Shown: positions 12,043 to 64,000, numbered from the stretch's first letter. The stretch is 64,000 bases of DNA from Pseudomonadota bacterium (GCA_018823175.1 JAHJIY010000066.1:92570-156569); one strand, 5' to 3'. The notes: generated by a model not told the origin, from the letters alone. A program made the numbers and translations.

Positions 12043-12045
12043 ATT

Positions 12046-13644
12046 ATGGATAGTGAAAAACTGATTATCGAGCTTAATTATAAAAATCAGATTGTCGATG
12101 AAAGCAGGCAGCCTGAGCCGTTTAGCAGCCACAAGATGTTTGATCTGCTGCCCGAAACAGTTGCCGGCAAGCGCACTCTCCAGATTTTGGAGATTCATGA
12201 GCTTTTTAAGGCGATTAATTATACTCGCACTTCGGTGGGTGCAGCACGGCTGTTTCATTCCCTGGTCAATCCGCCTGAGTCAATTGAACTAATTCATGCC
12301 AAACAGGATTCCTTCTGTGAGGTTGAAAGTAACGACCAGCTTAAAAAAGCTATTGCTCAATATCTTGAGGTGTTCCGGGCCGGGGAAAATGACTTGTTCC
12401 GATTGATCAACGCTCATCTTGTCCCGATTGCCCCTTATCGTGCCTTTAATAACGCGATGAAATCAATAAGGAAGATGTTGAAGGCGGCGGAAATGATTCC
12501 CCGGCCCGAGACGGTTTATCTTGATTCACTGGTCCAGAGTATTTTGAGTTTTACCAGCTCATCGGTTAATGATCTGGCCTCTGGTTCAAGGTATCGGACT
12601 TTCAGCGGGATTAAATCAGGCAAGAGCGCGAAGTTCTGGCAGGCAAAACTTAAATTCAGGTCGGGCCGGATAAGCGGCGGCGTGATCTGGCCTTCTTTGC
12701 CCTGTCTTTACTTCGGATCGGGCTGGCTTTTTGGTTTTCTTGATCCGGGGGTGGCGGAAGCTTTTTTTCTGATTACCAGTTGGATTGGCGTTCTTGGTAT
12801 TATGTATGGCGGGTTGGTTAAACCTATTTTTGATTATGAGACCGCGATTTTGCCGATCCGCAAGAAGATTGTCAGTTCAAATCGTTTTGCTTCGGCCATT
12901 GAGGCGGTTGCCGGTTTGGACGAGCTCCTGTCTTTTGTCGGTTACAGTAAAGCGGTGCCCCATCCGACGGTTATTCCTGAAATATTAAATGACGATACAC
13001 ATTTCTTTGTGGCCCGGGATTTACGAAATCCGATCTTGGCGGTCCGGGAAGAAAATTTCGTCGGTAATGATGTAAGTCTGGAGGGGGTACGGGCTACCTT
13101 TGTCACCGGTCCTAATAGTGGCGGGAAAACAACCTACTGCAAGACCATTGTTCAGAGTCAGATTCTAGGTCAGATCGGGGCGCCGGTGGTGGCGAGTTAT
13201 GCCCGGATGAATATGGCCGACCGGATAACCTATCAGGCCCCGGCCTTTGATTCCTTGAACGATCCGGAAGGAAGGTTCGGTACGGAACTGAAGGTGACCC
13301 GGGATATTTTTTACTCGGTTACCCCCAAAAGTCTGACCGTGCTCGACGAGATCGCCGAGGGTACAACCACCCACGAAAAGATGAGTCTTTCGGTGGAGAT
13401 CATGAATGGTTTTTATGCGAGTGGCGGGAATACCCTTCTTGTTACCCATAGCCATGAGCTGGTCGAGGAGTTCAGGGTGCAGAACAAGGGGCAGTATCTG
13501 CAGGTGGAGTTTCAGGATGAATTGCCGACTCATAAACTAAAAGAAGGGATCTCCTGTGAGAGTCACGCCCTTCGAGTGGCCCAGAAAATCGGTTTTTCAC
13601 CGGAAGATATGCAGCGCCATCTTAAAGAGAGAGGGTATGTTTGA
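12046..13644 (+). CDS. MutS-related ATPase. It has MutS domain V only, plus predicted transmembrane segments.
   Basis: Walker A GPNSGGKTT, Walker B LTVLDEIAEGTT and the LVTHSHEL motif are typical of the MutS ABC-ATPase domain. No mismatch-binding N-terminal domain is recognisable. There are hydrophobic stretches in the middle of the protein (GVIWPSLPCLYFGSGWLFGF, FFLITSWIGVLGIMYGGLV). Confidence 0.75.
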   Translation: MDSEKLIIELNYKNQIVDESRQPEPFSSHKMFDLLPETVAGKRTLQILEIHELFKAINYTRTSVGAARLFHSLVNPPESIELIHAKQDSFCEVESNDQLKKAIAQYLEVFRAGENDLFRLINAHLVPIAPYRAFNNAMKSIRKMLKAAEMIPRPETVYLDSLVQSILSFTSSSVNDLASGSRYRTFSGIKSGKSAKFWQAKLKFRSGRISGGVIWPSLPCLYFGSGWLFGFLDPGVAEAFFLITSWIGVLGIMYGGLVKPIFDYETAILPIRKKIVSSNRFASAIEAVAGLDELLSFVGYSKAVPHPTVIPEILNDDTHFFVARDLRNPILAVREENFVGNDVSLEGVRATFVTGPNSGGKTTYCKTIVQSQILGQIGAPVVASYARMNMADRITYQAPAFDSLNDPEGRFGTELKVTRDIFYSVTPKSLTVLDEIAEGTTTHEKMSLSVEIMNGFYASGGNTLLVTHSHELVEEFRVQNKGQYLQVEFQDELPTHKLKEGISCESHALRVAQKIGFSPEDMQRHLKERGYV

Positions 13645-13650
13645 TCTAGA

Positions 13651-15174
13651 TTAATCTTTCAATTCCGGTGGCTCCGGACTTGGGTCTGGTTGAGTAATAT
13701 TTTGTCGGGACACAATTTTTTTATTAGTCAAGGTTGCTCGGATTGCTTTTAAGACATCAACTGCCGGGTTGTTATTCGGTAGTTGAGAAGTGTTTCCCCC
13801 AAGAATGAGTTCGCCGATCTCAACGGAGCTCAAGTTCTCTAAAGGGGCGGCGGGCACGTATCCTTTATCCTGGTCTTTTACCTGTCTTAATATGCCTGAT
13901 CTGGTCAGGTCAGTCAGTACTCCTTTAATGTAGGCGTCTGGTTGTTTGAGCGTCCGCATCAGGTTGTCGCGGGTGGTGATTTTGTTTTCCTGGTAATCAG
14001 CGGCAATATGAGCGACGATTTCGAAGGCGAGCCCCAGGCGGTTGATCGGGGTCAGGGTCAGTTTTTTCCAGAGGTAGCGCGGCCAGATCTGGACCGCAAA
14101 TGATATCTCGGCCCCGCCCAGGAAGATCATCCAGCCGACATAGATCCAGATCAGGAAAAGGGGAAAGGTTGCGAAGGAGCCATACATCGCGTTATAACGG
14201 GCTACGCCGATTTGCATTTTGAAATAGAGGGCCTGAGACAGAATCCAGATAATGCCGCCGAAGAAGCCGCCGGTCAGCGCCGCACTTATTTTCACTTTGG
14301 TGTTTGGCAGGAAGCTGTACAGTATGGTGAAAGTCGCGACCAGGGCCAGGATTGGGATTAGATTCAGATGCTGCGGGCCGATCCAGGGCAGTTTGCTTTG
14401 GAGCCAGGCAAGCAGAGCCGGGCTCTTCAGGGTAGCCATGGTTGCCACTCCAAGATTAATGGTAATCGGCAGTAGCAGCATCAGGGCCAGATAGTCCATC
14501 AGCTTGCGCCCGTGGGATCTGCCGCTTCTGGTTTGCCAGATGGCATTCATCGCCTGTTCAATACTGTACAAAACGGAAAATACCGCAATTAACAGGGCCA
14601 GGATGCCGAAAATCCCCAGTGCCGCGAAGTTGGTGCGGTCCACATAGTCAAATACCATGTCGACTGCTATTTTCAGGTGGGTGGTTAGGGTGGCGGAAAG
14701 CTCTTTTTTGTCTTGGGCTGATTCGACAGATGTCGGTTCAGTTAATTCTGGGTTTTCGGCAGACTGGTCGGCGGTCTCAGCCGGTTGCTCCAGCAGGAGA
14801 ATGACCTCCCTTTGGCTGGTGGTTAGCTCCAACTGTTCAATGAAGGTGTGGGCGGCCTGCCGCATTTGGCCCCCGGCTCCCAAGCCTTTTAATACTGCGG
14901 TGCCAAGAGCCAGTACCGGCACCATGGAGAGGATGACGGTAAACGTCAGGGCGCTGGCCCTTAGGGGGATCCGGTCAGCGAGGAATTCCTGGTAGACAAT
15001 AAGGTGGATTCGCAAGACGGCCCGGATGAAGTTTAGAAACTTATGTTCGCCGGCGGTTGGGGTGGCCCATATCCATTTTGCCAGTTGTTCACGACGTGTG
15101 GGTTGGGGCGGGTAATCTTGATGAATCGGAGGTTCTTCTTCCGGCACGGAGGTGTCGTTTCTTATCTCGTCCAT
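13651..15174 (-). CDS. YihY/BrkB (virulence factor BrkB) family inner-membrane protein with a C-terminal soluble extension
   Basis: RASALTFTVILSMVPVLAL followed by multiple TM helices. The start is taken as MDEIRNDT (15174). The C-terminal ~130 aa looks like a small helical, winged-helix-like domain. Confidence 0.8.
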   Translation of the reverse strand: MDEIRNDTSVPEEEPPIHQDYPPQPTRREQLAKWIWATPTAGEHKFLNFIRAVLRIHLIVYQEFLADRIPLRASALTFTVILSMVPVLALGTAVLKGLGAGGQMRQAAHTFIEQLELTTSQREVILLLEQPAETADQSAENPELTEPTSVESAQDKKELSATLTTHLKIAVDMVFDYVDRTNFAALGIFGILALLIAVFSVLYSIEQAMNAIWQTRSGRSHGRKLMDYLALMLLLPITINLGVATMATLKSPALLAWLQSKLPWIGPQHLNLIPILALVATFTILYSFLPNTKVKISAALTGGFFGGIIWILSQALYFKMQIGVARYNAMYGSFATFPLFLIWIYVGWMIFLGGAEISFAVQIWPRYLWKKLTLTPINRLGLAFEIVAHIAADYQENKITTRDNLMRTLKQPDAYIKGVLTDLTRSGILRQVKDQDKGYVPAAPLENLSSVEIGELILGGNTSQLPNNNPAVDVLKAIRATLTNKKIVSRQNITQPDPSPEPPELKD

Positions 15175-22930: not shown

Positions 22931-24160
22931 CTAATTGTTGTAGGCGGCCTCACTGTGTTCCGCCTGGTCAAGGCCAAGGTTTTCATGATCCTTTGATAGG
23001 CGTAGACCCATCAGGACATCGATTACCTTGAATAAAATCCAGCTTATAATAAATGCGTAACCCCCGACAATCATTATGCCGAAAAGTTGGGTGGTCAGGA
23101 ATGAAACATTGCCGGTCAGAAGACCGTCAGCGCCGCCGGGGTTGATGGCTTTGGAGGCAAAGATGCCGAGGCAGATCGTGCCGAGCAGGCCGCCGAGACC
23201 GTGAATCCCGATGACATCAAGACTGTCATCAAAGCCGGCTTTGTTCTTGAAGGAGACGGCAAGATAACAGCAAATTCCAGCCACCAGACCGATGATGATC
23301 GCCGAGTTGGGGCTGACAAAACCGGCGGCCGGGGTAATGGTGGCCAGACCGGCGATTGCGCCCGAGGCAGCGCCAAGGGTGGTGGGCTTGCCGCTGTTGA
23401 GCCATTCCATTGCCGCCCACATTGCCATCCCGGCCATGCCACCAAGATGGGTTGCAACAAAGGCGGTCGCGGCGATGCCGTTGGCCGCCAGGGCGCTGCC
23501 GCCGTTAAATCCGAACCAGCCGAACCATAAGAGACCGGTACCGATCATCGTCATCGGCAGGTTGTGTGGCATGAAGTTGGTCTTGCCGAAATTCTGGCGG
23601 GGACCGATCACCAGAACCCCGGCCAGAGCGGCCATCCCGCAGGTCAGGTGGACCACCAGCCCCCCGGCGAAGTCTAAAACGCCGCGGGCAGCCAGCCAAC
23701 CGCCGGAGCCCCAGATCCAATGACAGACCGGATTGTAGACCAGGATTGCCCAAAATACGCTGAACACCAGAAAGGGCGCGAATCTGACCCTTTCTGCAAA
23801 AGCGCCGGTAATCAGGGCCGGAGTAATGATCGCGAACATGCACTGGTAAATCATAAAAACGGTCTGTGGTATGGTTGTCGCGTAGTCAGCGCTGGGCGCC
23901 GAGGTCACGCTGTTTAAGGCGAACCATGAAAGGTCGCCGGTCAGGCCGCTGACATCCGGCCCAAAAGACATCGAATATCCGATATAGACCCATTCGATTG
24001 AAATCAGTGAGATCATGATAAAGCTTTGCAGGATGGTTCCCAGTACATTCTTGCTGCGAACCATGCCGCCGTAAAATAAAGCCAGACCCGGTGTCATTAA
24101 CAACACCAGCCCGGCCGCCGCCAAAATAAAAGCAGTGTCTCCGGTGTTAATCATTTTCAA
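22931..24160 (-). CDS. amt: Ammonium transporter (Amt family), copy 1
   Basis: A 409-aa ORF, colinear and clearly paralogous to the downstream copy (DFAGGLVVHLTCG, FGFNGGSAL). Confidence 0.97.
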   Translation of the reverse strand: MKMINTGDTAFILAAAGLVLLMTPGLALFYGGMVRSKNVLGTILQSFIMISLISIEWVYIGYSMSFGPDVSGLTGDLSWFALNSVTSAPSADYATTIPQTVFMIYQCMFAIITPALITGAFAERVRFAPFLVFSVFWAILVYNPVCHWIWGSGGWLAARGVLDFAGGLVVHLTCGMAALAGVLVIGPRQNFGKTNFMPHNLPMTMIGTGLLWFGWFGFNGGSALAANGIAATAFVATHLGGMAGMAMWAAMEWLNSGKPTTLGAASGAIAGLATITPAAGFVSPNSAIIIGLVAGICCYLAVSFKNKAGFDDSLDVIGIHGLGGLLGTICLGIFASKAINPGGADGLLTGNVSFLTTQLFGIMIVGGYAFIISWILFKVIDVLMGLRLSKDHENLGLDQAEHSEAAYNN

Positions 24161-24236: not shown

Positions 24237-24252
24237 AGCAAATGATGTGCCA
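24237..24252 (-). promoter_or_regulatory. sigma54 (-24/-12) promoter upstream of the amt-amt-glnB-glnD operon
   Basis: The minus strand reads TGGCACATCATTTGCT. GG and GC are at consensus spacing (TGGCAC-N5-TTGC), about 77 nt upstream of the amt ATG. Confidence 0.75.
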
Positions 24253-36195: not shown

Positions 36196-36702
36196 TTACT
36201 GCACGACAAACTCGGTAAAATATATATTCTTGACCTTGGTCGGCCGCATTATCTGGTTGAAGCGGGCCAGCAGTTCGTCCCTGATCCGGATTTTGCCTTC
36301 CGGCGTCATCACATCCTCAAAGGAAAGACTGGTCAGCATCATGATCACCATATCCCTGAGTTTGGGGTCGGCTTTTTGCGCCAGCGCAACCGCTTCCACG
36401 GACTCCATTTCAATTTCGACCTTGAGTTTCAGGTACCGTTTGCCCGTGGGGTCGGAGAGGTTTACGGTAAACGGCGCCATGGCGTATATCTCGCCAATGA
36501 CCTCGCTGTCCTTTTTCGGGACGACTTCGCCGCTCTTTTCGGTTTCAGCCACCGGCTTGGGGGCCATGAGTTTGGTGTATGCGAAAAATCCTCCTCCTCC
36601 CAGCAGCAGAACTAAGACGCCGATAATCACCAAAAGCATGGTTTTTGATTTTTTCGGGCCGGCGCTCTCTTCCGGAGTTGCGGCTTCCTGTTCCTTGGCC
36701 AT
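36196..36702 (-). CDS. fliL: Flagellar basal-body-associated protein FliL
   Basis: A 168-aa ORF with one TM helix and a C-terminus ...RIRDELLARFNQIM...IYFTEFVVQ typical of FliL. Confidence 0.9.
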   Translation of the reverse strand: MAKEQEAATPEESAGPKKSKTMLLVIIGVLVLLLGGGGFFAYTKLMAPKPVAETEKSGEVVPKKDSEVIGEIYAMAPFTVNLSDPTGKRYLKLKVEIEMESVEAVALAQKADPKLRDMVIMMLTSLSFEDVMTPEGKIRIRDELLARFNQIMRPTKVKNIYFTEFVVQ

Positions 36703-36758: not shown

Positions 36759-36774
36759 AGCAATCATTATGCCA
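36759..36774 (-). promoter_or_regulatory. sigma54-type (-24/-12) promoter upstream of fliL
   Basis: The minus strand reads TGGCATAATGATTGCT, with GG and GC at consensus spacing, about 57 nt upstream of the fliL ATG. Confidence 0.7.
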
Positions 36775-51859: not shown

Positions 51860-52132
51860 ATGAATATGTCTAACCCACAAAAATTCTATACCCTTTACCG
51901 GGATGGCTTCAGGTCGATGGTCCTTGGGCGTACCCTGTGGAAGATAATTATCATAAAACTGTTGATAATTTTCGGGGTATTGAAACTGTTTTTTTTCCCG
52001 GATTTTCTGACAGAAAATTTTGATAATGATCAAGAGAAGGCAGACTATGTTCTGGAGGCGATTACCGCGCAAGGGAAAAGTGATTTTTGGAATGTGAAAC
52101 AGATGGATAAAGTAAAAAGGAGGGAGAAATGA
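51860..52132 (+). CDS. DUF4492-like small membrane protein preceding cydA
   Basis: A 90-aa ORF, FYTLYRDGFRSMVLGRTLWKIIIIKLLIIFGVLKLFFF, whose stop overlaps the cydA start. Confidence 0.7.
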   Translation: MNMSNPQKFYTLYRDGFRSMVLGRTLWKIIIIKLLIIFGVLKLFFFPDFLTENFDNDQEKADYVLEAITAQGKSDFWNVKQMDKVKRREK

Positions 52133-53664
52133 TCGAACAATTTGATGTTTCAATGGTTAATTGGGCCCGGGCGCAATTTGCGATGACGGCCATGTACCAC
52201 TGGATTTTTGTGCCACTGACTCTGGGTTTGTCGTTTCTGGTCGCTTTTTTTGAGACCTTTTACGTCAAAACCGGTAACGAGCAATGGAAACGGCTGACAA
52301 AATTCTGGATGACTCTGTTTGGGATTAACTTTGCTATCGGGATGGCAACTGGCATCATCCTGGAATTTGAGTTCGGCACTAACTGGTCAAATTACTCATG
52401 GATGGTCGGCGATATATTCGGGGCACCGCTGGCGGTGGAAGGAATTTTCGCCTTTTTTATTGAAGCGACTTTCTTTGCGGTAATGTTTTTTGGCTGGGAC
52501 CGGGTCTCGAAAAAGATGCATTTGTTCTCCACCTGGATGGTGGCAATCGGCTCCAATCTTTCTGCTTTGTGGATTCTGGTGGCCAACGGCTGGATGCAGT
52601 ATCCGGTGGGGATGGAGTTTAATCCTGATACGGCTCGTTTTGAGATGCATAATTTCTGGGATATCTTGTTTTCGCCGGTGGCAATCGGTAAATTTACCCA
52701 TGCGACCAGTTCCGGGTTCTTGCTGGGCTCTCTTTTCGTGGTTGCGGTTTCTTCGTGGTTTTTGCTCAAGGGGCGCCATCTTGAAATGGCCAAAAAAAGT
52801 ATTCTGGTGGCCTCGGTCTTCGGCATATTGTCGTCCGTGTTCGTCGGTTTTACCGGTGACGAGGCGGCTTATAATGTGGCCCAGGTTCAGCCTATGAAGC
52901 TGGCCACTTTTGAAGGGCTGTATGACGGACAGCGTAATGCCGGCCTGGTCGCCATGGGCGTAATGAATAACTACAAAAAGCCCGGCGACAGTTTTGATCC
53001 CTTCCTGTTTAAGTTTGAGGTGCCTGGCCTCTTGTCCTTGCTCGCGAATCGTCAGTCCGGTAGTTTTGTGCCCGGGATTAACGACCTATTGTACGGCAAT
53101 GAGCAGGAAAATATTCTTGGGGTCGATAAAAAAATGGAGCGCGGCAAAATTGCGGTCGAACAGTTGGGTCTTTATAAAAATGCCAAGAAGCAGGGGAACG
53201 ATCAGTTGGCGAAAAATGCGCTTGGAAAATTCAATCAACATAAAGAATATCTTGGCTACGGCCACTTGAAGAGTGTGGAAGAGGCGGCTCCGCCGGCACC
53301 GATTAACTTCTACAGTTTCCATTTGATGGTTGTCCTGGGCACCTTGTTCCCGATCATCTTCCTGCTCTTTTTGTTCTATACCTATAAAGATACGATCAGT
53401 GAGCAAAAATGGCTGCTCAATGTTGGCGTGGTCGCGGTATTTCTGGGCTGGGTGGCCCAGGAATGTGGCTGGATTGTGGCCGAGGTCGGTCGTCAGCCCT
53501 GGGCGATCCAGGGGTTGCTGCCGGTATCGGTGGCACGTTCTAATCTGACGCCCGGTACGGTGCAGACCACATTCTTCATGTTCTTGATCCTGTTTACGGT
53601 CCTGCTGATCGCAGAGATTCGGATCATGCTTACCCAAATTAAAATCGGCCCGGAGGAAGTATAA
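52129..53664 (+). CDS. cydA: Cytochrome bd ubiquinol oxidase subunit I
   Basis: A 511-aa ORF with RAQFAMTAMYHWIFVPLTLG, a Q-loop region and GWIVAEVGRQPW. Confidence 0.97.
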   Translation: MIEQFDVSMVNWARAQFAMTAMYHWIFVPLTLGLSFLVAFFETFYVKTGNEQWKRLTKFWMTLFGINFAIGMATGIILEFEFGTNWSNYSWMVGDIFGAPLAVEGIFAFFIEATFFAVMFFGWDRVSKKMHLFSTWMVAIGSNLSALWILVANGWMQYPVGMEFNPDTARFEMHNFWDILFSPVAIGKFTHATSSGFLLGSLFVVAVSSWFLLKGRHLEMAKKSILVASVFGILSSVFVGFTGDEAAYNVAQVQPMKLATFEGLYDGQRNAGLVAMGVMNNYKKPGDSFDPFLFKFEVPGLLSLLANRQSGSFVPGINDLLYGNEQENILGVDKKMERGKIAVEQLGLYKNAKKQGNDQLAKNALGKFNQHKEYLGYGHLKSVEEAAPPAPINFYSFHLMVVLGTLFPIIFLLFLFYTYKDTISEQKWLLNVGVVAVFLGWVAQECGWIVAEVGRQPWAIQGLLPVSVARSNLTPGTVQTTFFMFLILFTVLLIAEIRIMLTQIKIGPEEV

Positions 53665-54801
53665 ATGATCGGCAATCTTGATACTGCGACCTTGCAGCAA
53701 TTATGGTGGATTCTTTGTTCTGTGGTTGGTTCCCTTTTCCTTTTCCTGACTTTTGTTCAGGGTGGGCAGACCCTGCTGTTTACAACAGCCCGGAATGACG
53801 AGGAGAAAAATTTGATGGTCAATTCTCTGGGCCGGAAATGGGAGCTTACCTTTACGACCCTGGTTTTGTTCGGTGGCGCTTTATTTGCCTCCTTTCCTCT
53901 TTTTTATGCCACCAGTTTCGGGGGGGCATACTGGGTGTGGATTCTTATTCTTTTTACTTTTATCATTCAGGCGGTCAGCTATGAATATCGCCGGAAGCCG
54001 GATAATTTTCTGGGGCAGACCACTTATGATATTTTCCTTTTGATCAACGGCAGCGTCGGGATTTTATTAATTGGCGCGGCGGTGGGCACGTTTTTTACCG
54101 GCTCAAATTTTACGCTCAATGATTACAATCAGGTGATGTGGCAACATCCCTGGCGCGGACTGGAAGCGGCGACCAGCGGTTTTAATCTTTCCCTTGGTTT
54201 GTTCCTGGTTTTTCTGGCCCGGGTGCTGGGCGCCATGTATCTGACCAATAATATCGACTATCCTGACCTGAATCGGCGTCTGGCGAAAGCGACTTTGATT
54301 AACTTCATAATTGCATTGCCCTTTCTGCTCTATGTTCTGATTAGTCTGCTGGTTATGGATGGATTTGGCGTTGATCCGGCTACCGGTGTAGTGTCGATGG
54401 TTAAAGGTAAATATCTGCAAAACCTTTTGTCTTCCCCTTTAAATCCGATTTTGCTGTTGGCTGGGTTAGTGGCGGTGATTTGGGGAGTGGTGTCAAATAG
54501 CTTTATGGGCAAGCGATGCGGGATCTGGTCGGCCGGGATGGGAACGGTCCTGGTCGGTCTGGCGATTTTTTCACTGGCCGCGTTCAATAATACCGCCTTT
54601 TACCCGTCGGTATCGGATTTGCAATCCAGTTTGACCATCTATAATGCATCAAGCAGTCATTTTACTCTGACTGCCATGACTTACGTGGCTATCGCTATTC
54701 CGTTTGTCTTGGCCTATATCTTCTATTTCTGGTGGAAGATGGATGCTCAAAATCTTACGCTGGCAGATCTGAGTAGTGCTGACGCCAAGGAAATATACTA
54801 G
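53665..54801 (+). CDS. cydB: Cytochrome bd ubiquinol oxidase subunit II
   Basis: A 378-aa polytopic ORF that starts immediately at the cydA stop. Its N-terminus is CydB-like (LQQLWWILCSVVGSLFLFLTFVQGG). Confidence 0.95.
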   Translation: MIGNLDTATLQQLWWILCSVVGSLFLFLTFVQGGQTLLFTTARNDEEKNLMVNSLGRKWELTFTTLVLFGGALFASFPLFYATSFGGAYWVWILILFTFIIQAVSYEYRRKPDNFLGQTTYDIFLLINGSVGILLIGAAVGTFFTGSNFTLNDYNQVMWQHPWRGLEAATSGFNLSLGLFLVFLARVLGAMYLTNNIDYPDLNRRLAKATLINFIIALPFLLYVLISLLVMDGFGVDPATGVVSMVKGKYLQNLLSSPLNPILLLAGLVAVIWGVVSNSFMGKRCGIWSAGMGTVLVGLAIFSLAAFNNTAFYPSVSDLQSSLTIYNASSSHFTLTAMTYVAIAIPFVLAYIFYFWWKMDAQNLTLADLSSADAKEIY

Positions 54802-54941
54802 ACCTTTTGGGACTAAAAATTGGTGCGAAAATGTTGATGAGATGAGGGGCAAAAAATCCTTAGAATAGGGTTTATATTAAAAGGATTTAGTCCCCGAAGA
54901 GTATAACGAGCCGGCTTTGCCGGCGTAAGGAGAAATAAGAG

Positions 54942-55037
54942 ATGATAGCTTTCTTGTTGATAAGTTGGGTTGTGTTGCTGGTTGTCTCCCTGAAGGGGGC
55001 GGAAATAGTCCTGAAAAAGGCCGGCAAGTTTGAATAG
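54942..55037 (+). CDS. Candidate 31-aa single-TM small protein between cydB and the peroxiredoxin gene
   Basis: ATG at 54942 preceded by AAGGAG (54927-54932). It translates to MIAFLLISWVVLLVVSLKGAEIVLKKAGKFE. It is below the ORF-track size cutoff and has no recognisable similarity to CydX. Confidence 0.35.
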   Translation: MIAFLLISWVVLLVVSLKGAEIVLKKAGKFE

Positions 55038-55104
55038 ATGGTTTTTGTCCGGATGGAACAATCTGGAAAATTGAGCAATTATAAAATTAATAAGGAGATC
55101 AGCT

Positions 55105-55692
55105 GTGTGTAATTTAGTAACCAAAGAAGCGCCGGATTTTACCGCCCAGGCGGTGATGCCGAATAATACGATTGCCGATCTTTCCCTTTCTTCGTACCGC
55201 GGGAAATATGTGGTCCTGTTTTTTTATCCGTTGGATTTTACCTTTGTCTGCCCTTCGGAGATTCTAGCTTTCAATAAGGCGGTCAGCCGTTTTGCTGAAA
55301 AAAATTGCCAGCTACTCGGGGTGTCGGTTGATTCACAATTTACCCATCTTGCCTGGAAGAATACCGCAATTAATGATGGCGGAATCGGCAAGATTGATTT
55401 TCCCCTGGTGGCCGACCTGAACAAGGCGATCTCCCAGGCCTATGGAGTACTGCTTAGCGGCGGTGTTGCCTTACGGGGTTTGTTCCTGATCGATAAGGCC
55501 GGGATTATCCGCCATTCGGTGGTCAACGATTTACCTCTGGGGCGTAACGTGGATGAGGCCTTGCGGATGGTTGAAGCTTTGCAGTTTTTTGAGACCTGCG
55601 GCGAGGTGTGCCCGGCTAACTGGCGGCCCGGCGAAGATGGCATGAAGCCTACGGCCGCGGGCGTGGCCGAGTATCTGAGCAAGCACGCCTAG
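55105..55692 (+). CDS. Typical 2-Cys peroxiredoxin (AhpC/Tsa family)
   Basis: Peroxidatic Cys motif DFTFVCPSE and resolving Cys VCPANW. It has a GTG start 7 nt after AAGGAG. Confidence 0.95.
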   Translation: MCNLVTKEAPDFTAQAVMPNNTIADLSLSSYRGKYVVLFFYPLDFTFVCPSEILAFNKAVSRFAEKNCQLLGVSVDSQFTHLAWKNTAINDGGIGKIDFPLVADLNKAISQAYGVLLSGGVALRGLFLIDKAGIIRHSVVNDLPLGRNVDEALRMVEALQFFETCGEVCPANWRPGEDGMKPTAAGVAEYLSKHA

Positions 55693-55782
55693 TTCGTTAC
55701 TTTTATATTAAACTTAAGAAAGGCCGTCGGGATCTTATTCCGGCGGCCTTTCTTTGTAATGGTGACAAATTAATCAAGGAGA

Positions 55783-58946: not shown

Positions 58947-59588
58947 AGCCGCTAGACGACTCAAACGAAACTTATGTGCCGCGAAGCAGATAAGCGCTGA
59001 CTTCGAATGCCCTTGGGGTGCCCTTGTGGTATAAATAGTTGTTGTCGGTTGCGGTGATTCCGGAGTTTGGTGTTGGTTCGAAACATTATCAAGCAAAGGA
59101 CCATTTGCTACTTTCTAAAAGCCAGGGCGGTTTTTTGTTATCTTTGATCATGATTACCGGTATCGCGGGCACTGAAGGTAGGACGTTTTCTTGATCGGGA
59201 CTTCTTCTGTAATCCTGGCTGTTCAGCGAGTGAAGCAGGTTTTTCGTGATCGTTCTGAAATGAAAACACGTCTGGATGCTGCGTTAAATAACTAAATCAA
59301 GGATGTCCCCTGTTCCTACGGTTCCTTCTTCAGAATTGTTTATTTAAATGAGCTTTTCTCTACTGCAGAAAAGGTATCAAGCTTGACAAGTGGGTGTTTT
59401 GTCAGGCAAGAATGCCCAATAGTCAAAAATGCCCCCGCATGGATGAACCCTTATTTATTACTGCGGTCAGGTGACAGTTGATGTTCAATAAAAGCCAATA
59501 ACAGATTTGATGCCCCTTTCTCTCTGTTTATTGACGTTCGGGAGAAAAGCCCAAAGCGACTCCTTTTTCATAGATTATTTGGTGAAAT

Positions 59589-61652
59589 ATGCCTAAACAT
59601 AACGTAAGGGAAAAGGTTCTGATCCCACTTAGCTTGACCTTTGGCGTCTTAATCGTAGCATTTGTCTGGGCCGGTTACGGGATTCGCCGGGCCGATGAAC
59701 ATCTGCTATTACAACAACACTTCCAGGGTACGCAGAGTGTGCTGACCGGATTGTTGAAGGAAGAGGTGGCAGTTTTGACCTCGACGGTTGAATTCATCTC
59801 CAACCGGCCAGCCTTGCAACAGGCCATGGTGGATCATGATTTAAAGAGACTGAGCACCGAAAGCGGTCTTCTCTACGAACGCATTTCAAGTCAACTGAAT
59901 ATCACCCATTTTTATTATCATGATCCGCAGGGCCGACTTTTGCTCCGGGTCTATTTCCCTGAGGATGTCAGCACCCCGGCCCTGCGGCGAAAAACCATGC
60001 AACTGGCCATGCACAGCGGCCAGCCCCAGACCGGCCTGGAAATTGGCCGACACGGCACATTTGCTCATCGACTGGTATTCCCGTGGTATATGGCAGGGGA
60101 ACTGATCGGCTATATTGAACTGGGCAAGGATCTCAAACCAACCCTTGATAAGATCAAAGAAATTACCCAAATTGATTTGACTGTTGTCATCGACAAGAAT
60201 AATCTTAACCGCGAGAATTGGGAATCTTATGCAGTAAAGCAACAGCATCCTTTCCCCTGGGACTTTATGGCCGAAAAAGTGGTCAGTTATACGACCATCA
60301 ACCTCACCAGAAAAATGGCTGACCAGATATTCAAAGACTCTAAATACGGCATCATTGATGGCCATATTGACTTTGGCCAACGATCTTTTCGGGGGGCGTT
60401 GCTACCGGTGGCCGACACCCAGGATCAGCGGGTCGGTGATATGGTCATGCTGGCCGACGTAACCGGGCAAGAAATGGCTTTTTATGGATTTTTGATTTTG
60501 GTGGTCGGTTTTGGGCTCTTGCTATGTGGCGCATTGTTCGTTTTTTCTTACGGAGTTCTTGGCCGGGTGGGGCGGCAGTTGACCGCCGGTGCAGATCTTT
60601 TACGGCGAGAAAGTGCCAGTCTCTCCGAAGTTAATTTCCAGTTGCAGAAAGAAATTGATATTCGTAAACAGGCCGAAGAGCGGTTGCGCAATCTCAACCT
60701 TACCCTTGAAGGACGAGTGTCAGAACGGACCGGTGAGCTGGAGCAACAGAACGTCATCTTGGAGCAAAATCGTCGGGCGTTAGAAAAGGCCTACGAAGAA
60801 CTGCAGGAAAAACAGGCCGCCATTTTGCATCAGGACAAGATGGCCTGTATTGGCCAATTGGCGGCCGGTGTGGCCCATGACATCAACAACCCTGTCGGTT
60901 TTATCAGTCACAATCTGACCCTGTTCAGCCGCTACTTTCAGCGGCTGCAACAACTTTTCGCTTTACAGAAACAATTAATTATGGCGCGGGCCTCCCTCGA
61001 TATTAAGATGGCTTGCGAAAAAGACTGGCGGGATTTAAAAGTCGACGAAGTTTTTGCAGAAGTTCCGGTCATGTTGCAAGAGTGCCAGGTTGGCACCACG
61101 CGTATCACTCAGATTGTCCAGAGTCTGCGCACCTTTATTCGCAGCGAAACGCCTAAATACGAATTGACCAATCTGCAGCAGTGCCTTGATAGCACCCTGA
61201 CCTTGTTGCGCCATGAACTGGGCACCCGTATCCGGGTGGTGAAAGAATACCGGCCTATCCCCCTCTTCCCTGCATACACCCAGCAAATGAACCAGTTGTT
61301 CATGAACCTTCTGCTCAATGCCTGTCAGTCAATCGAAGGGCGCGGTGAGATTGTAATTCGCACCTGGGCCACTGACCAGCAGATCTCCATTGTCATTAGC
61401 GATAGCGGTTGCGGCATTCCCCCAGAGCTGTGCGAAAGGATCTACGAACCATTTTTTACAACCAAGCCGATCGGGGCCGGCACCGGTCTCGGGTTGAGTA
61501 TTGTCTACGAGGCGGTGACCCGGCATCAGGGCAGTCTGAAGGTTCAGAGCGAGGTTGGTCGCGGCACCACCTTTACCCTGTGCTTCCCTTTTAACAATCA
61601 AAAGACGGGGCCCGTTGATGCCCCGACCAGAGCAGGAGATTTCCATGGCTGA
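59589..61652 (+). CDS. Sensor histidine kinase with a periplasmic sensing domain
   Basis: Two TM helices flanking a ~280-aa extracytoplasmic domain, a coiled-coil linker, H-box AAGVAHDINNPV, and HATPase_c blocks (DSGCGIP, GTGLGLSIV). Confidence 0.9.
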   Translation: MPKHNVREKVLIPLSLTFGVLIVAFVWAGYGIRRADEHLLLQQHFQGTQSVLTGLLKEEVAVLTSTVEFISNRPALQQAMVDHDLKRLSTESGLLYERISSQLNITHFYYHDPQGRLLLRVYFPEDVSTPALRRKTMQLAMHSGQPQTGLEIGRHGTFAHRLVFPWYMAGELIGYIELGKDLKPTLDKIKEITQIDLTVVIDKNNLNRENWESYAVKQQHPFPWDFMAEKVVSYTTINLTRKMADQIFKDSKYGIIDGHIDFGQRSFRGALLPVADTQDQRVGDMVMLADVTGQEMAFYGFLILVVGFGLLLCGALFVFSYGVLGRVGRQLTAGADLLRRESASLSEVNFQLQKEIDIRKQAEERLRNLNLTLEGRVSERTGELEQQNVILEQNRRALEKAYEELQEKQAAILHQDKMACIGQLAAGVAHDINNPVGFISHNLTLFSRYFQRLQQLFALQKQLIMARASLDIKMACEKDWRDLKVDEVFAEVPVMLQECQVGTTRITQIVQSLRTFIRSETPKYELTNLQQCLDSTLTLLRHELGTRIRVVKEYRPIPLFPAYTQQMNQLFMNLLLNACQSIEGRGEIVIRTWATDQQISIVISDSGCGIPPELCERIYEPFFTTKPIGAGTGLGLSIVYEAVTRHQGSLKVQSEVGRGTTFTLCFPFNNQKTGPVDAPTRAGDFHG

Positions 61653-63009
61653 GCAAAAAACCCGCATTCTTTATGTTGACGACGAGTTGACCTGGCGGCG
61701 GATTTTCATCCGTGAGCTGCGCGATGATCCGCGCTTTACCATTCAAACTGCGGAAAACGGGGACGAGGCCCTGCGGGTTCTGGTGGATTTTCGAGCCGAA
61801 ATCGTCCTGACCGATCTTTCGATGCCAAAGATGGACGGCATCGCCCTGCTGCAGGAAATTCATGCCCGCTATCCGGATATTTTTGTTCTGATTCTGACCG
61901 GGGTCGACTCGACCAGAGAAGCGGTGCGTGCCATGAAGGCTGGGGCTTACGATTATATTCTAAAACCTTTCGATGCCACCTCCCTGCAGATGCAACTGGA
62001 AAAAATTATCCGCCATCGAAAGTTGCTCAACGGCGGCGGCCCCGATGGTGGCGCGGGAGAGGCACAATTTGAAAACCTGGTCGGCCAGGAACCCGCCATG
62101 TACGAACTTTTTGAATTCATCCGGCGGATTGCGGCAACCGACGCCACCGTCTTGATTCGGGGCGAAAGCGGCAGCGGCAAGGAACTGATTGCGGCAGCTA
62201 TTCACAACCGCAGCAATCGGCGCGATAAAGTCTTCATCCCGGTAAACTGCGCCGCTTTAACCGAAACTCTGATCGGCAGCGCCCTGTTCGGCCATGAAAA
62301 AGGAGCTTTTACCGGAGCAACGGCGCAGCAAATCGGTTTTTTTGAACGAGCTGACGGCGGCACGATCTTTCTCGATGAAATTGGCGACATTCCCATGCCG
62401 ACTCAGATCGCGCTCTTGCGGGTGTTCGAATTAGGCACTTTTCAACGGGTGGGGAGCACCGAAACCCGGCGGGTTGATACCCGGATAATCTGCGCCACCA
62501 ACCGGAACCTCGAGGCTGCCATCGGCGCCAAGACCTTTCGCGAAGATCTCTACTATCGCCTTAATGTGGTAACGCTGCGGGCTCCTCCGCTACGCGAACG
62601 GCTGGCCGATGTGCCCCTGCTGGTCCAGTATTTTCTGCGCAAGTTCAGTCGCGAATATGGCAAACCGGTTACCGCTATCAGCTCAGCCGCCCTGGCCCTG
62701 CTTAATGCCAATCCCTGGCCGGGCAACGTCCGAGAGCTGGCCCATGTGATTGAGCGGGCGGTGGTTTTTTGCCACGGTGCCGAGTTGAGGCCCGAGGACT
62801 TTCCAGCCGAAATGCGCCTGGCCAAGCCGGGCAATGACTTCAACCTGACTCTGAAATCGAGCGCCCTCCCCGAGATCGAAGCCGAAGTCATTCGCAAGGT
62901 GCTCGCAGCCAAGCAGTGGAACCTGTCTCGAGCCGCTGAAGCCCTGGGGATCGCCCGCGGCACCCTGTACAGCAAGATCAAAATTTACGGTATCGAAAAA
63001 TCCTCCTGA
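61645..63009 (+). CDS. sigma54-dependent response regulator (NtrC family enhancer-binding protein)
   Basis: REC domain (ILYVDDE, TDLSMPKMDG), AAA+ domain (GESGSGKE, GAFTGA, ESELFGHEKG-like FGHEKGAFTGA) and a C-terminal Fis-type HTH (AAEALGIARGTLYSKIK). The ATG at 61645 overlaps the kinase stop. Confidence 0.95.
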   Translation: MAEQKTRILYVDDELTWRRIFIRELRDDPRFTIQTAENGDEALRVLVDFRAEIVLTDLSMPKMDGIALLQEIHARYPDIFVLILTGVDSTREAVRAMKAGAYDYILKPFDATSLQMQLEKIIRHRKLLNGGGPDGGAGEAQFENLVGQEPAMYELFEFIRRIAATDATVLIRGESGSGKELIAAAIHNRSNRRDKVFIPVNCAALTETLIGSALFGHEKGAFTGATAQQIGFFERADGGTIFLDEIGDIPMPTQIALLRVFELGTFQRVGSTETRRVDTRIICATNRNLEAAIGAKTFREDLYYRLNVVTLRAPPLRERLADVPLLVQYFLRKFSREYGKPVTAISSAALALLNANPWPGNVRELAHVIERAVVFCHGAELRPEDFPAEMRLAKPGNDFNLTLKSSALPEIEAEVIRKVLAAKQWNLSRAAEALGIARGTLYSKIKIYGIEKSS

Positions 63010-63032
63010 CCTTCTCTCATTTTAATCCTGTT

Positions 63033-63208
63033 GAAAATTGAACAATCTCTTATTCGGCCTTTAAGGTACTCTTGGTAGGCTGTGAAGCGGCGCGCCCCGC
63101 GCATGTTTTCATGTTGCCGAAAATTGAACAACGCAGGAATCTTGAAAATTCCTCGGAAAAACGGCGAGTTGTAACGCTGCTGGTCTGCTGCTGTCCATAA
63201 TTGAACAG
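63033..63208 (+). promoter_or_regulatory. Three direct repeats (GAAAATTGAACAA x2 and a CATAATTGAACAG variant), candidate enhancer (UAS) sites
   Basis: Identical 13-mers at 63033-63045 and 63119-63131, and a related copy at 63196-63208. The last copy is about 100 bp upstream of the sigma54 promoter. Confidence 0.55.
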
Positions 63209-63297
63209 TCTGGCGAGATCAACAGCTGGCTGATCAGGTGCCTCAAAAACATCGCAACAGCTTTAAATCATTACTTAAATAATGGAAAAATCCATCT

Positions 63298-63313
63298 TGG
63301 TGCAAATTTTGCA
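63298..63313 (+). promoter_or_regulatory. sigma54 (-24/-12) promoter
   Basis: TGGTGCAAATTTTGCA, with GG at 63299-63300 and GC at 63311-63312, which is consensus spacing. It lies directly downstream of the EBP gene. Confidence 0.7.
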
Positions 63314-63516
63314 TTACATAGTTGGGATACAATCTGTGCAGGGACACAGGACGTCTTCGGGTCAAACAATTTAGGGCGGGCTCATAAGGGCGCGACAGCT
63401 GTGCTGAGGCCTGCTGCTGAGATCTCGGATGGTCAGCCTTTGTTTCCTGACAACGGGAAAAATCCTCTACTTTAAGGTGGGGGTAGTTTATTTAACTTAA
63501 TCAGTTAGGAGAAAAA

Positions 63517-64000
63517 ATGGGTAAATTTAGGGTTTTAAAATGGGGGGTGTTGTTGGTAGCGTTAACGCTGCTGGTAGCTCTCGTCGGCTGCAGCGGCGAC
63601 GACGGGAGTGTTGGGGCAACTGGTGCTGTCGGTCCAACTGGCCCTGATGGTGCAGATGGACAGGATGCTGTCGGTCTTACAGCCTTCGCTGCCCAACCTT
63701 TAGCAATCAGCGGCCTGGTTTTTGGGGCCAATGCTGACGGGTTCATTATTGCTACTTTTGATGCTGCCTCTGGCACGACACCGGTCACCGGCATGACCGA
63801 GTCGGTCACGAGTATTTCTTTCACCGGCTTGCTCCCAGGTACTGATGGAGCATCCGACGAGTGGACCTATTGGGGCGCCGCCACGGATGCCTTGGTTGAA
63901 AACTCCACGGGCAACTATACCCTCACCACCGACAAAAAAGTTGCCGACGCCCCTGCCGGCACAACAACCCAGCGTGCTCTGATCCAGTTCAACAATGGTG
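63517..64000 (+). CDS. Lipoprotein with a short collagen-like G-X-Y tract. The 3' end is truncated by the window edge.
   Basis: My own translation, since the ORF is open to the window end and is therefore absent from the ORF track: MGKFRVLKWGVLLVALTLLVALVGCSGDDGSVGATGAVGPTGPDGADGQDAVG... It has an AGGAG RBS at 63507-63511, a lipobox LVGC, and six consecutive GXY triplets. Confidence 0.75.
   Translation, partial: MGKFRVLKWGVLLVALTLLVALVGCSGDDGSVGATGAVGPTGPDGADGQDAVGLTAFAAQPLAISGLVFGANADGFIIATFDAASGTTPVTGMTESVTSISFTGLLPGTDGASDEWTYWGAATDALVENSTGNYTLTTDKKVADAPAGTTTQRALIQFNNG

What the first reader, a model, noticed from the sequence alone, without database searches (positions are those of the whole stretch)
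59589..64000. A self-contained sigma54 circuit: kinase, NtrC-type activator, three repeated upstream sites, a -24/-12 promoter, and a collagen-like lipoprotein.
- The kinase and EBP genes overlap (ATGGCTGA).
- Directly downstream lie two identical 13-mers, GAAAATTGAACAA, 86 bp apart, and a third variant 77 bp further on.
- These are followed about 100 bp later by TGGTGCAAATTTTGCA, which has correct GG/GC spacing.
- The target gene encodes a lipobox protein (LVGC) whose mature N-terminus starts with six G-X-Y triplets (GAT GAV GPT GPD GAD GQD).
- The target ORF is not in the ORF track because it runs off the window.
- Collagen-like tracts on bacterial lipoproteins are uncommon. No heme-binding motif is visible in the 161 aa available.
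Basis: partly seen in the sequence, partly recalled or inferred. Interest (0 to 1): 0.6.

Follow-up and report, generated by a model that had tools for sequence, protein, structure and literature searches.

The report
Sigma-54 switch for a surface cytochrome

Summary
Comparison with other loci shows the features are functional, not chance.

**The target gene.** The window ends inside it. On the source contig (GCA_018812655.1) it is a 736-aa protein with a lipobox and ten CXXCH motifs. It scores above the NCBIfam cutoff for the OmcA/MtrC decaheme family.

**The "collagen-like" tract.** This is the family's usual N-terminal tether: 43 of 47 relatives have at least 4 in-phase G-x-y triplets. It fails the Pfam Collagen cutoff.

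**The enhancer and promoter.**
- Seven loci carry the same kinase–activator–cytochrome module, including the cultured Desulfuromonas soudanensis WTL.
- In each, the intergenic region has exactly three co-oriented TTGAACA sites. The site 2–3 spacing is 76–84 bp.
- A GG-N10-GC promoter follows site 3 at 93–97 bp (69 bp in one locus).
- More distant orthologues of the kinase and activator keep the sites and promoter but drive other outer-surface multiheme cytochromes or putative porin–cytochrome operons.

**Verdict.** This is an uncharacterised, apparently portable two-component, sigma-54 module dedicated to extracellular-electron-transfer cytochromes. It is a new member of a known kind. The sensed signal is unknown.

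The parts
59589..61652 (+). Sensor histidine kinase, 687 aa. Layout: TM, periplasmic dCache_3 (aa 50-292), TM, coiled coil, H-box (AHDINNP, His430), HATPase_c.
   Evidence: Pfam gives dCache_3 at 9e-18 and HATPase_c at 2e-25. Orthologues of 42-75% identity sit in the same gene order in L002, L003, L012, L014 and L009.
61645..63009 (+). NtrC-family enhancer-binding response regulator, 454 aa. Domains: REC (Asp57), AAA+ with Walker A GESGSGKE and GAFTGA, and a C-terminal Fis-type HTH. It overlaps the kinase stop by 8 nt.
   Evidence: Pfam gives Response_reg at 5e-25, Sigma54_activat at 1e-68, AAA_lid_14 and HTH_8 at 4e-12. The best solved relatives are Aquifex NtrC4 and NtrC1. No NCBIfam equivalog reaches its cutoff.
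63029..63044 (+). Enhancer site 1, TGTTGAAAATTGAACA (TGT-N10-ACA), 20 bp after the activator's stop codon.
   Evidence: It is conserved at the same place in L002, L012, L014, L015 and L032.
63090..63112 (+). GC-rich hairpin plus T-run (GCGCGCCCCGCGC ATGTTTTCAT). It is the likely terminator of the kinase-activator operon and lies between sites 1 and 2.
   Evidence: Found by the terminator-like scan. GC-rich hairpins occupy the same interval in L014 and L015, read by eye from the sequences printed.
63115..63130 (+). Enhancer site 2, TGCCGAAAATTGAACA.
63192..63207 (+). Enhancer site 3, TGTCCATAATTGAACA (TGT-N10-ACA). Its centre lies about 124 bp upstream of the predicted start.
   Evidence: A site-3-specific form, GTCCATAATTGAACAGT, recurs in L002, L003, L012 and L015.
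63298..63313 (+). Sigma-54 type -24/-12 promoter, TGGTGCAAATTTTGCA. The predicted start is about 63324.
   Evidence: A GG-N10-GC element lies 93-97 bp after site 3 in six of the seven loci with this cytochrome (69 bp in L009), 92 bp in L032 and 69-70 bp in the sub-type B loci.
63324..63516 (+). Predicted 5' leader of about 193 nt. It contains a terminator-like hairpin at 63464-63483 followed by TAGTTTATTT, then AGGAG.
   Evidence: One search found the hairpin. There is no Rfam match, no consensus fold, and the single-sequence fold has z = -1.3.
63517..64000 (+). [quoted passage not shown] It includes the signal peptide with lipobox LVGC (Cys25 at 63589-63591) and the G-x-y tether (aa 24-50, 63586-63666).
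   Evidence: The full gene is on L001 at 11873-14083. Family scores are TIGR03507 301.7 bits (cutoff 209.3) and PF22113 at 6e-34. The best PDB and fold matches are MtrC and OmcA.

Best explanation
This is a dedicated two-component, sigma-54 switch for one extracellular-electron-transfer cytochrome.

**Shown by sequence and comparison**
- The kinase has a periplasmic dCache_3 sensor.
- Its partner is an NtrC-type activator with a complete receiver, GAFTGA ATPase and HTH.
- Three co-oriented 16-bp sites (TGT/C-N10-ACA with an invariant TTGAACA half) sit about 124, 201 and 287 bp upstream of the predicted start.
- A GG-N10-GC promoter follows.
- The target is a single gene for a lipobox-bearing, ten-heme OmcA/MtrC-family protein, followed by a terminator.

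**Inferred**
1. An unknown periplasmic signal makes the kinase phosphorylate Asp57 of the activator.
2. Activator dimers on the three sites assemble into the active ring.
3. The ring contacts sigma-54 holoenzyme held in a closed complex at -24/-12, by looping across an AT-rich spacer.
4. ATP hydrolysis opens the promoter.
5. The product is exported, loaded with haem, lipidated at Cys25 and placed on the cell surface.
6. The G-x-y stretch serves as a flexible tether of variable length, and the protein acts as a terminal reductase, as OmcA or UndA do.
For: **Domains and motifs:** and direct reading of the sequence.

**Target identity**
- 736 aa with ten CXXCH.
- TIGR03507 above its cutoff.
- PF22113 at 6e-34.
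- MtrC is the best PDB sequence hit.
- MtrC and OmcA are the top eight fold hits.

**Enhancer**
- Each of 7 loci with the orthologous kinase-activator pair upstream of this cytochrome has exactly three TTGAACA, all on the coding strand and none on the other. The site 2-3 gap is 76-84 bp. Flanking columns carry about 0 bits of information.
- In 1.05 Mb of fetched DNA, every same-strand cluster of at least 3 TTGAACA within 300 bp lies right after an orthologous activator gene.
- The sites are absent from loci where the same cytochrome clade sits beside other regulators.
- The activator's recognition helix differs (SKIK versus SKME) between the two clades that have different left half-sites.

**Promoter**
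- The GG-N10-GC element keeps a fixed distance from site 3 in 11 loci.
- Canonical -24/-12 matches also precede an ammonium transporter gene and fliL in this window, both classical sigma-54 targets.

**Function of the module:** more distant orthologues (kinase about 40% identical, activator 58-70%) keep the sites and promoter. They drive a different decaheme MtrC-like gene, a 12-haem cytochrome, or operons encoding a putative (below-cutoff) beta-barrel protein plus small multihaem cytochromes.
Against: - Nothing here is experimental. There is no TSS, no binding data, and rpoN itself was not seen because only one contig is available.
- The sites are only partly palindromic (7 of 9 pairs in site 1). 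In one clade the left half, CGCCGG, is not symmetric to TTGAACA, so the binding mode is unclear.
- Sites about 80 bp apart are wider than the closely paired sites of classical NtrC enhancers.
- No IHF consensus was found in the spacer.
- The loci are related by descent, so the counts are not independent events.
- The sensed signal is unknown. The sensor domain has no solved or characterised relative.
- No mtrAB-like porin genes lie next to the cytochrome, so its electron donor is unknown.
- The structure model is poor (mean pLDDT 52.9).
Confidence: 0.8

Rival explanations
1. The TTGAACA repeats are bound by some other protein, such as a repressor, a nucleoid protein or a second regulator. The adjacent activator would then use a different, unrecognised site, or act elsewhere.
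For: - The sites are asymmetric, and in one clade they are not palindromic.
- Site 1 overlaps the 3' end region of the activator operon, before its terminator.
- Spacing of about 80 bp is atypical for cooperative enhancer-binding protein sites.
Against: - The sites co-occur strictly with the orthologous activator gene and appear nowhere else in 1.05 Mb.
- They are absent upstream of the same cytochrome clade when a different regulator is adjacent.
- The left half-site changes together with the activator's recognition helix.
- The distance to the -24 element is fixed.
Confidence: 0.1
2. The -24/-12 match is fortuitous. The cytochrome gene would be read from a sigma-70 promoter, possibly one close to the gene in the conserved TTTATTTAAC region. 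The kinase-activator pair would merely be a neighbour.
For: - The loose -24/-12 pattern is not enriched in the window: 9 hits against 6.4 expected.
- The -24 half is TGGTGC rather than TGGCAC.
- A conserved AT-rich block lies about 25 nt before the ATG.
Against: - GG-N10-GC is kept at a fixed distance from site 3 in 11 diverged loci.
- The same cytochrome clade with a different adjacent sigma-54 activator also has a strong element, TGGCTTGGGTTTTGCA, 140 nt before the ATG.
- The sigma-70 scan found no promoter-like site on the + strand between 63010 and 63516.
Confidence: 0.07
3. The G-x-y tract is a true collagen triple helix. It would trimerise the cytochrome and hold it on a rigid stalk, so the protein is functionally a bacterial collagen-like surface fibre carrying haem domains.
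For: - The tract is strictly in phase from the lipobox Gly.
- It is conserved as a feature yet very variable in length (2-23 triplets, median 10), as in BclA- and Scl-type collagen-like proteins.
- Many relatives carry a precomputed Pfam Collagen hit.
Against: - In this protein the tract is only 9 triplets long.
- It scores 17.3 bits against the Collagen cutoff of 27.2.
- It has little proline.
- It is modelled as unstructured, with pLDDT below 50.
- Shewanella MtrC and OmcA, which have similar short tracts, were solved without any collagen-like trimer (from my own knowledge of those structures).
Confidence: 0.1

Closest known systems
BccR and the cbcBA operon of Geobacter sulfurreducens (bioRxiv 10.1101/2021.04.15.440034)
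   Same: A receiver, sigma-54 AAA+ and HTH response regulator encoded next to a respiratory cytochrome operon that has a -24/-12 promoter. It is required to induce that operon during metal reduction.
   Different: - BccR is transcribed divergently and has no cognate kinase beside it.
- Its target is an inner-membrane bc-type quinol oxidoreductase, not a surface decahaem lipoprotein.
- No three-site enhancer of this type is described for it.
- Orthology was not tested here.
OmcA, MtrC and UndA of Shewanella
   Same: - Same protein family (TIGR03507, PF22113).
- Ten haems and a lipobox.
- A short G-x-y stretch after the lipid-anchored Cys.
- Like omcA and undA, the gene is not part of a porin operon (PMC11492766).
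   Different: - Sequence identity is only about 18-21%.
- Shewanella omcA and mtrC are activated by cAMP-CRP, which binds upstream of their mapped start sites, not by an enhancer-binding protein (PMC4417206).
- No mtrAB genes are adjacent here.
NtrB/NtrC at glnAp2 and other two-component sigma-54 systems (ZraSR, AtoSC, Aquifex NtrC1 and NtrC4)
   Same: Same domain architecture of kinase and activator, the same promoter class, and upstream activator sites about 100-300 bp from the start.
   Different: - All NCBIfam equivalogs are below their cutoffs: AtoC scores 415 against 714, and NtrC 401 against 559.
- The sensor is a periplasmic dCache_3.
- The sites are three single co-oriented elements 76-94 bp apart, rather than closely paired dyads.
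NifA upstream activator sequence, TGT-N10-ACA
   Same: Sites 1 and 3 fit TGT-N10-ACA, and site 2 fits TGC-N10-ACA.
   Different: The activator has a receiver domain, not a GAF domain. TIGR01817 (NifA) is below its cutoff. The resemblance lies only in dyad geometry.

Membership tests
[quoted passage not shown] | Ten CXXCH haem-binding motifs | tested here: met
   Ten CXXCH in the 736-aa product.
[quoted passage not shown] | Score above the curated family model cutoff | tested here: met
   TIGR03507 scores 301.7 bits against a cutoff of 209.3. PF22113 MtrC/MtrF domains II/IV scores 117.5 bits against a cutoff of 30, in two stretches.
[quoted passage not shown] | Four-domain layout: beta-barrel, pentahaem, beta-barrel, pentahaem | tested here: inconclusive
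   The model has confident beta domains at 60-181 and 366-530, alternating with the two CXXCH-rich regions. The top eight PDB fold hits are MtrC or OmcA. However, mean pLDDT is 52.9 and TM-scores are about 0.2.
[quoted passage not shown] | N-terminal lipoprotein signal with lipidated Cys | tested here: met
   LVGC lipobox with Cys25 and Ser at +2. A lipobox was found in 38 of 47 relatives. Lipidation itself is not testable here.
[quoted passage not shown] | Cell-surface location and extracellular reductase activity | not testable with these tools
   Needs fractionation, protease accessibility and reduction assays.
MtrCAB-type porin-cytochrome conduit | Adjacent mtrA-like periplasmic decahaem gene and mtrB-like porin gene | tested here: not met
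   The gene is monocistronic. It is followed by a terminator and a transposase remnant. Downstream genes differ in every orthologous locus.
NtrC-family bacterial enhancer-binding response regulator | Receiver domain with phospho-acceptor Asp, AAA+ domain with GAFTGA, Walker A and B motifs, and a C-terminal HTH | tested here: met
   Pfam REC, Sigma54_activat (1e-68) and HTH_8. DD12-13, D57, GESGSGKE, GAFTGA and FLDEIGD were read in the sequence.
NtrC-family bacterial enhancer-binding response regulator | ATP-dependent activation of sigma-54 holoenzyme | not testable with these tools
   Needs in vitro transcription or genetics.
Sigma-54 dependent promoter | GG and GC doublets exactly 10 nt apart, within TGGCAC-N5-TTGCW-like hexamers | tested here: met
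   TGGTGCAAATTTTGCA matches 9 of 12 consensus positions.
Sigma-54 dependent promoter | Conservation of the element in orthologous regions | tested here: met
   Present at a fixed distance from site 3 in 11 loci.
Sigma-54 dependent promoter | rpoN present, and a mapped start about 12 nt downstream of GC | not tested
   Only one contig is available. Indirect support comes from canonical elements upstream of an ammonium transporter gene and fliL in the window.
Bacterial collagen-like (triple-helix) protein | Collagen repeat region above the Pfam cutoff and long enough for a stable triple helix | tested here: not met
   PF01391 scores 17.3 bits (15.5 for the full protein) against a cutoff of 27.2. 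The tract has only 9 triplets and is modelled as disordered.

The most novel reading that the evidence does not exclude
The dCache_3 kinase and activator pair, together with its three-site enhancer, is a portable 'plug-in' sensor cassette. It travels with whatever outer-surface multihaem cytochrome it controls, across Desulfobulbales, Desulfuromonadales and other Desulfobacterota. Its periplasmic domain directly senses an extracellular electron acceptor or a product of its reduction, such as a metal ion. That would make it the first dedicated acceptor sensor for extracellular electron transfer. In addition, the G-x-y tether, whose length varies from 9 to 23 triplets among close relatives, would tune how far the haem domains reach from the membrane.
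Probability: 0.2. Interest if true: 0.65.

Novelty: new member of a known kind. Interest (0 to 1): 0.42.

Why it matters
Regulation of outer-surface cytochromes is known mainly from Shewanella (cAMP-CRP) and a few Geobacter regulators. What tells a cell that an extracellular acceptor is available remains largely open.

This module offers a concrete, testable handle on that question:
- a periplasm-facing sensor;
- a predicted binding motif (cTGTyGAwAATTGAACA);
- a fixed enhancer-promoter geometry;
- targets that are outer-surface multihaem cytochromes in every locus long enough to read, across two orders.

The same module is present in the cultured, electrode-respiring D. soudanensis WTL. Deletions, promoter fusions and ligand screens are therefore feasible there. 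The motif can also be used to annotate the regulon in metagenome-assembled genomes.

Tried and rejected
1. **Homologue search with the 161-aa in-window fragment.** It found nothing. This was solved by looking up the activator's exact sequence, which gave the source contig and the full gene.
2. **Riboswitch or known RNA in the roughly 193-nt leader.** There was no Rfam match even at E = 10. The single-sequence fold is not unusual, with z = -1.3. RNAalifold predicts no shared structure over seven loci. The leaders differ in length (96-219 nt from the -24 element to the ATG) and align only among the closest relatives.
3. **IHF site between site 3 and the promoter.** No WATCAANNNNTTR match with up to 1 mismatch exists in the window's spacer, and hits elsewhere are sporadic. 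Only an AT-rich promoter-proximal stretch is shared.
4. **A fourth site upstream of the kinase gene** (59482-59497, minus strand). It fits TG-N7-TTGAACA but is absent from all orthologous loci, so I treat it as chance. The match at 14555-14570 lies inside a coding region.
5. **Sensor-domain relatives.**
   - The word-indexed search returned only three remote hits.
   - The PDB profile search returned nothing meaningful.
   - The metagenome scan worked, but relatives below about 35% identity lack an adjacent activator. The module is therefore limited to the closer clade.
6. **Structure model of the cytochrome.** Confidence is low in the haem domains, as expected without haem. I used it only as weak support.
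7. **Literature.** I found no paper describing this two-component system, the TTGAACA motif with sigma-54, or the collagen-like tether of OmcA/MtrC proteins.

Full report
**1. Observation**

The region was read directly and its ORFs listed.

- The kinase ORF runs 59589-61652 and the activator ORF 61645-63009.
- GAAAATTGAACAA occurs exactly twice in the 64-kb window, at 63033 and 63119. The variant CATAATTGAACAG is at 63196.
- An independent repeat finder returns one three-copy family at 63020, 63106 and 63183, with spacings 86 and 77.
- TGGTGCAAATTTTGCA lies at 63298-63313.
- The target ORF begins at 63517 behind AGGAG.

The loose versions of both motifs are no more frequent in the window than in shuffles. 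Within the window, the evidence is therefore the exact duplication and three same-strand TTGAACA in 0.5 kb. The background is 0.14 per kb per strand.

**2. What the target is**

The 161-aa fragment had no detectable homologues. I looked up the activator's exact sequence and found the source: contig JAHJDI010000031.1 of GCA_018812655.1, a metagenome-assembled genome labelled only as a Proteobacteria bacterium.

- There the ORF continues to 736 aa with ten CXXCH motifs.
- It ends before a GC-rich hairpin followed by a run of T. After that come a short transposase-like remnant and the contig end.
- It passes the curated model for the OmcA/MtrC decaheme family: TIGR03507 scores 301.7 bits against a cutoff of 209.3.
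- It carries two MtrC/MtrF domain II/IV matches (PF22113, 6e-34).
- Its best solved relative by sequence is Shewanella MtrC domains I-II (9eov, 6e-9).
- A low-confidence AlphaFold model (mean pLDDT 52.9) shows two confident beta domains alternating with the two haem regions. All eight top PDB fold hits are MtrC or OmcA.
- No mtrA- or mtrB-like genes are adjacent, so it is a stand-alone member, like omcA and undA.

A recent survey already noted a large group of MtrC/OmcA-like cytochromes in Desulfuromonadia that are not in porin operons (PMC11492766).

**3. The 'collagen-like' tract**

- The G-x-y phase starts at the lipobox glycine: GCS GDD GSV GAT GAV GPT GPD GAD GQD, nine triplets.
- Of the 47 family proteins found, 43 have at least four in-phase triplets near the N-terminus. 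The median is 10 and the maximum is 23.
- Close orthologues (72-77% identical) carry 12, 16 or 23 triplets.
- HMMER aligns the tract with GSDGNNGNDGSDG of Shewanella MtrC.
- The Pfam Collagen score, 17.3 bits, is below the cutoff of 27.2. The tract is modelled without structure.

I read it as the family's usual flexible, length-variable tether between the lipid anchor and domain I. It is not an unusual collagen domain. A true triple helix is not excluded for long-tract relatives.

**4. The regulators**

- The kinase has two transmembrane segments flanking a dCache_3 domain, then a coiled coil, an H-box and an ATPase domain.
- The activator has a complete receiver, a sigma-54 AAA+ domain with GAFTGA, and a Fis-type HTH (and the sequence).
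- Its closest solved relatives are Aquifex NtrC4 and NtrC1.
- No curated equivalog (AtoC, NtrC, ZraR and others) reaches its cutoff.
- The sensor domain has no solved relative.

**5. Comparative test of the enhancer and promoter**

Loci were gathered in three ways. Exact-sequence look-ups of cytochrome homologues gave. One scan of GTDB genomes used the cytochrome alignment. One scan of metagenomes used the sensor domain.

Seven loci carry the orthologous kinase-activator pair directly upstream of this cytochrome:
- the window;
- L002 and L003;
- L012, a Desulfurivibrionaceae genome;
- L015;
- L014, which is D. soudanensis WTL, a cultured isolate with a complete genome;
- L009, a Desulfuromonadales genome.

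Findings across these seven loci:
- Every intergenic region has exactly three TTGAACA on the coding strand and none on the other strand.
- The site 1-2 gap is 82-90 bp, with two exceptions (345 bp in L003, 155 bp in L009). The site 2-3 gap is 76-84 bp.
- The distance from site 3 to the GG-N10-GC element is 93-97 bp, or 69 bp in L009.
- Columns outside the roughly 19-bp consensus cTGtyGAwAATTGAACAayc carry about no information, so this is a footprint rather than general similarity.

More distant orthologues have kinases about 40% identical and activators 58-70% identical. They keep the arrangement with other targets:

| Locus | Sites | Distance to promoter | Promoter | Target |
|---|---|---|---|---|
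| L032 | three | 92 bp | TGGCACTAAAATTGCT | 12-haem cytochrome with an MtrC-type domain |
| L025, L028 | three TCGCCGGATATTGAACA | 70 bp | CGGCACAGAAGGTGCT in L028 (CGGCACGGAAGGTGCT in L025) | in L028, an operon for a beta-barrel-like outer-membrane protein (Pfam match below cutoff) plus 5-haem and 3-haem cytochromes; the L025 contig ends before the genes could be read |
| L029 | two | 69 bp | GGGCACAGTGGTTGCT | a half-MtrC pentahaem lipoprotein plus a similar operon |
| L021-L023 | one recognisable site | 161 bp | TGGCACAGGCGTTGCT | a different decahaem OmcA/MtrC-like protein |

Further support:
- Over all 1.05 Mb fetched, every same-strand cluster of at least three TTGAACA within 300 bp lies just after an orthologous activator gene.
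- The two site sub-types, with left halves CTGTYGA and CGCCGGA, go with two versions of the recognition helix, SKIK and SKME. This is consistent with the activator being the binding protein. It amounts to only two clades.

**6. Sigma-54 dependence of this cytochrome clade beyond one activator**

- In L004/L007, L006 and L008 the same cytochrome clade (69-75% identity) has a different HAMP kinase and sigma-54 activator pair. That pair is encoded downstream on the other strand.
- L004 has at most one weak TTGAACC, and L008 has no TTGAACA site at all.
- L004 and L008 share a sharply conserved block. It starts with the palindromic TGCCAAACTGGCAAACTTGTGCCAAATTGGCAA and runs through a strong TGGCTTGGGTTTTGCA element 140 nt before the ATG.
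- One locus, L016, has an OmpR-type system instead.

So sigma-54 control recurs with at least two activator types but is not universal.

**7. Is sigma-54 used in this genome?**

I did not see rpoN, because only this contig is available. The two best -24/-12 matches elsewhere in the window are both intergenic. TGGCACATCATTTGCT at 24237 lies just upstream of an ammonium transporter gene. TGGCATAATGATTGCT at 36759 lies just upstream of fliL. Both are classical sigma-54 targets.

**8. Mechanism**

Shown: the parts list, their order, and their conservation.

Inferred from the established mechanism of NtrC-family activators:
1. A periplasmic signal leads to kinase autophosphorylation and transfer to Asp57.
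2. Activator dimers at the three sites, centred near -124, -201 and -287, assemble into the active ring.
3. The ring loops to the closed sigma-54 complex.
4. ATP hydrolysis opens the promoter.

Open points:
- Three dimer sites would supply exactly one hexamer.
- No IHF consensus was found. The promoter-proximal spacer is AT-rich and may bend intrinsically.
- A hairpin with a T-run between sites 1 and 2 probably terminates the regulator operon.
- The signal is unknown.
- Surface export and reductase activity are inferred from family membership and from what is known of Shewanella lipoprotein cytochromes (PMC6929479).

**9. Comparison with known systems**

- The nearest functional precedent is BccR, a sigma-54 response regulator needed to induce the cbcBA cytochrome operon in Geobacter (bioRxiv 10.1101/2021.04.15.440034).
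- Cytochromes also appear in the Geobacter RpoN regulon (PMC2725144).
- Shewanella omcA and mtrC are instead activated by cAMP-CRP (PMC4417206).
- Sites 1 and 3 fit the TGT-N10-ACA geometry known from NifA sites, but the activator is not NifA.
- The D. soudanensis genome paper mentions an MtrC-family decahaem gene in a horizontally acquired, prophage-like region (PMC4914508). I could not confirm that it is the same gene.
- The module sits in unrelated surroundings in each genome, twice beside transposase genes or remnants. This fits transfer as a unit.

**10. Verdict**

- This is an uncharacterised but conventional type of system: a new member of a known kind.
- Its value is practical. It gives a defined motif, a fixed architecture, a consistent class of targets, and a cultured host in which to find the signal.
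- Interest score: 0.42.

Noticed in passing
window 24237-24252 (-) and 36759-36774 (-): Two near-consensus -24/-12 elements, TGGCACATCATTTGCT and TGGCATAATGATTGCT, lie in intergenic DNA. They sit just upstream of an ammonium transporter gene (22931-24160, PF00909) and of fliL (36196-36702, PF03748). Both are likely sigma-54 promoters.
   Followed up: partly
window 63464-63493: A terminator-like hairpin, CCTCTACTTTAAGGTGGGGG, followed by TAGTTTATTT sits in the leader about 25 nt before the ribosome-binding site. The TTTATTTAAC block recurs in L012, L015 and L009. No shared fold was predicted and there is no Rfam match. It could be an attenuator or a translational element.
   Followed up: partly
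window 59482-59497 (-): A fourth match to TG-N7-TTGAACA lies about 100 bp upstream of the kinase start, in the opposite orientation. It is not present in any orthologous locus, so it is probably chance rather than autoregulation.
   Followed up: yes
L001 14100-14551 (beyond the window end): After the cytochrome gene come two hairpins, the second followed by TTTTTT. Next is a short ORF starting MARAKRHYIPGQMWYITHRCHKRDF that resembles a truncated IS200/REP-type transposase, and then the contig end. L003 has transposase genes upstream of the kinase. The three-gene module may therefore be mobile.
   Followed up: partly
L004 5780-5880 and L008 6555-6655: The same cytochrome clade is paired with a different HAMP kinase and sigma-54 activator. 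These are encoded convergently downstream. Their putative enhancer is different and palindromic (TGCCAAACTGGCAAACTTGTGCCAAATTGGCAA), about 80 bp before TGGCTTGGGTTTTGCA.
   Followed up: partly
P0001-P0047 N-termini; window 63586-63666: The length of the in-phase G-x-y tether varies widely even among close orthologues: 9, 12, 16 and 23 triplets at 72-77% identity. This suggests rapid expansion and contraction of the repeat.
   Followed up: partly
window 59589-61652 (kinase, aa 383-667): The best NCBIfam hit of the kinase transmitter half is NF038348 'T2SS_HK', at 258.7 bits and below its cutoff of 450. I did not examine what that family is associated with. Type II secretion exports Shewanella surface cytochromes, so a link may be worth checking.
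   Followed up: no
window about 51860-55700 (L001 222-4048): Upstream of the module lie a cytochrome bd oxidase operon (DUF4492, CydA, CydB) and a peroxiredoxin gene. These are oxygen-defence functions in what is otherwise an anaerobe-type gene set.
   Followed up: no
window 62995-63005, 63144-63154, 63457-63467: GAAAAATCCTC occurs three times, once with one mismatch: at the activator stop, between sites 2 and 3, and at the leader hairpin. Its meaning is unknown and it may be chance.
   Followed up: no
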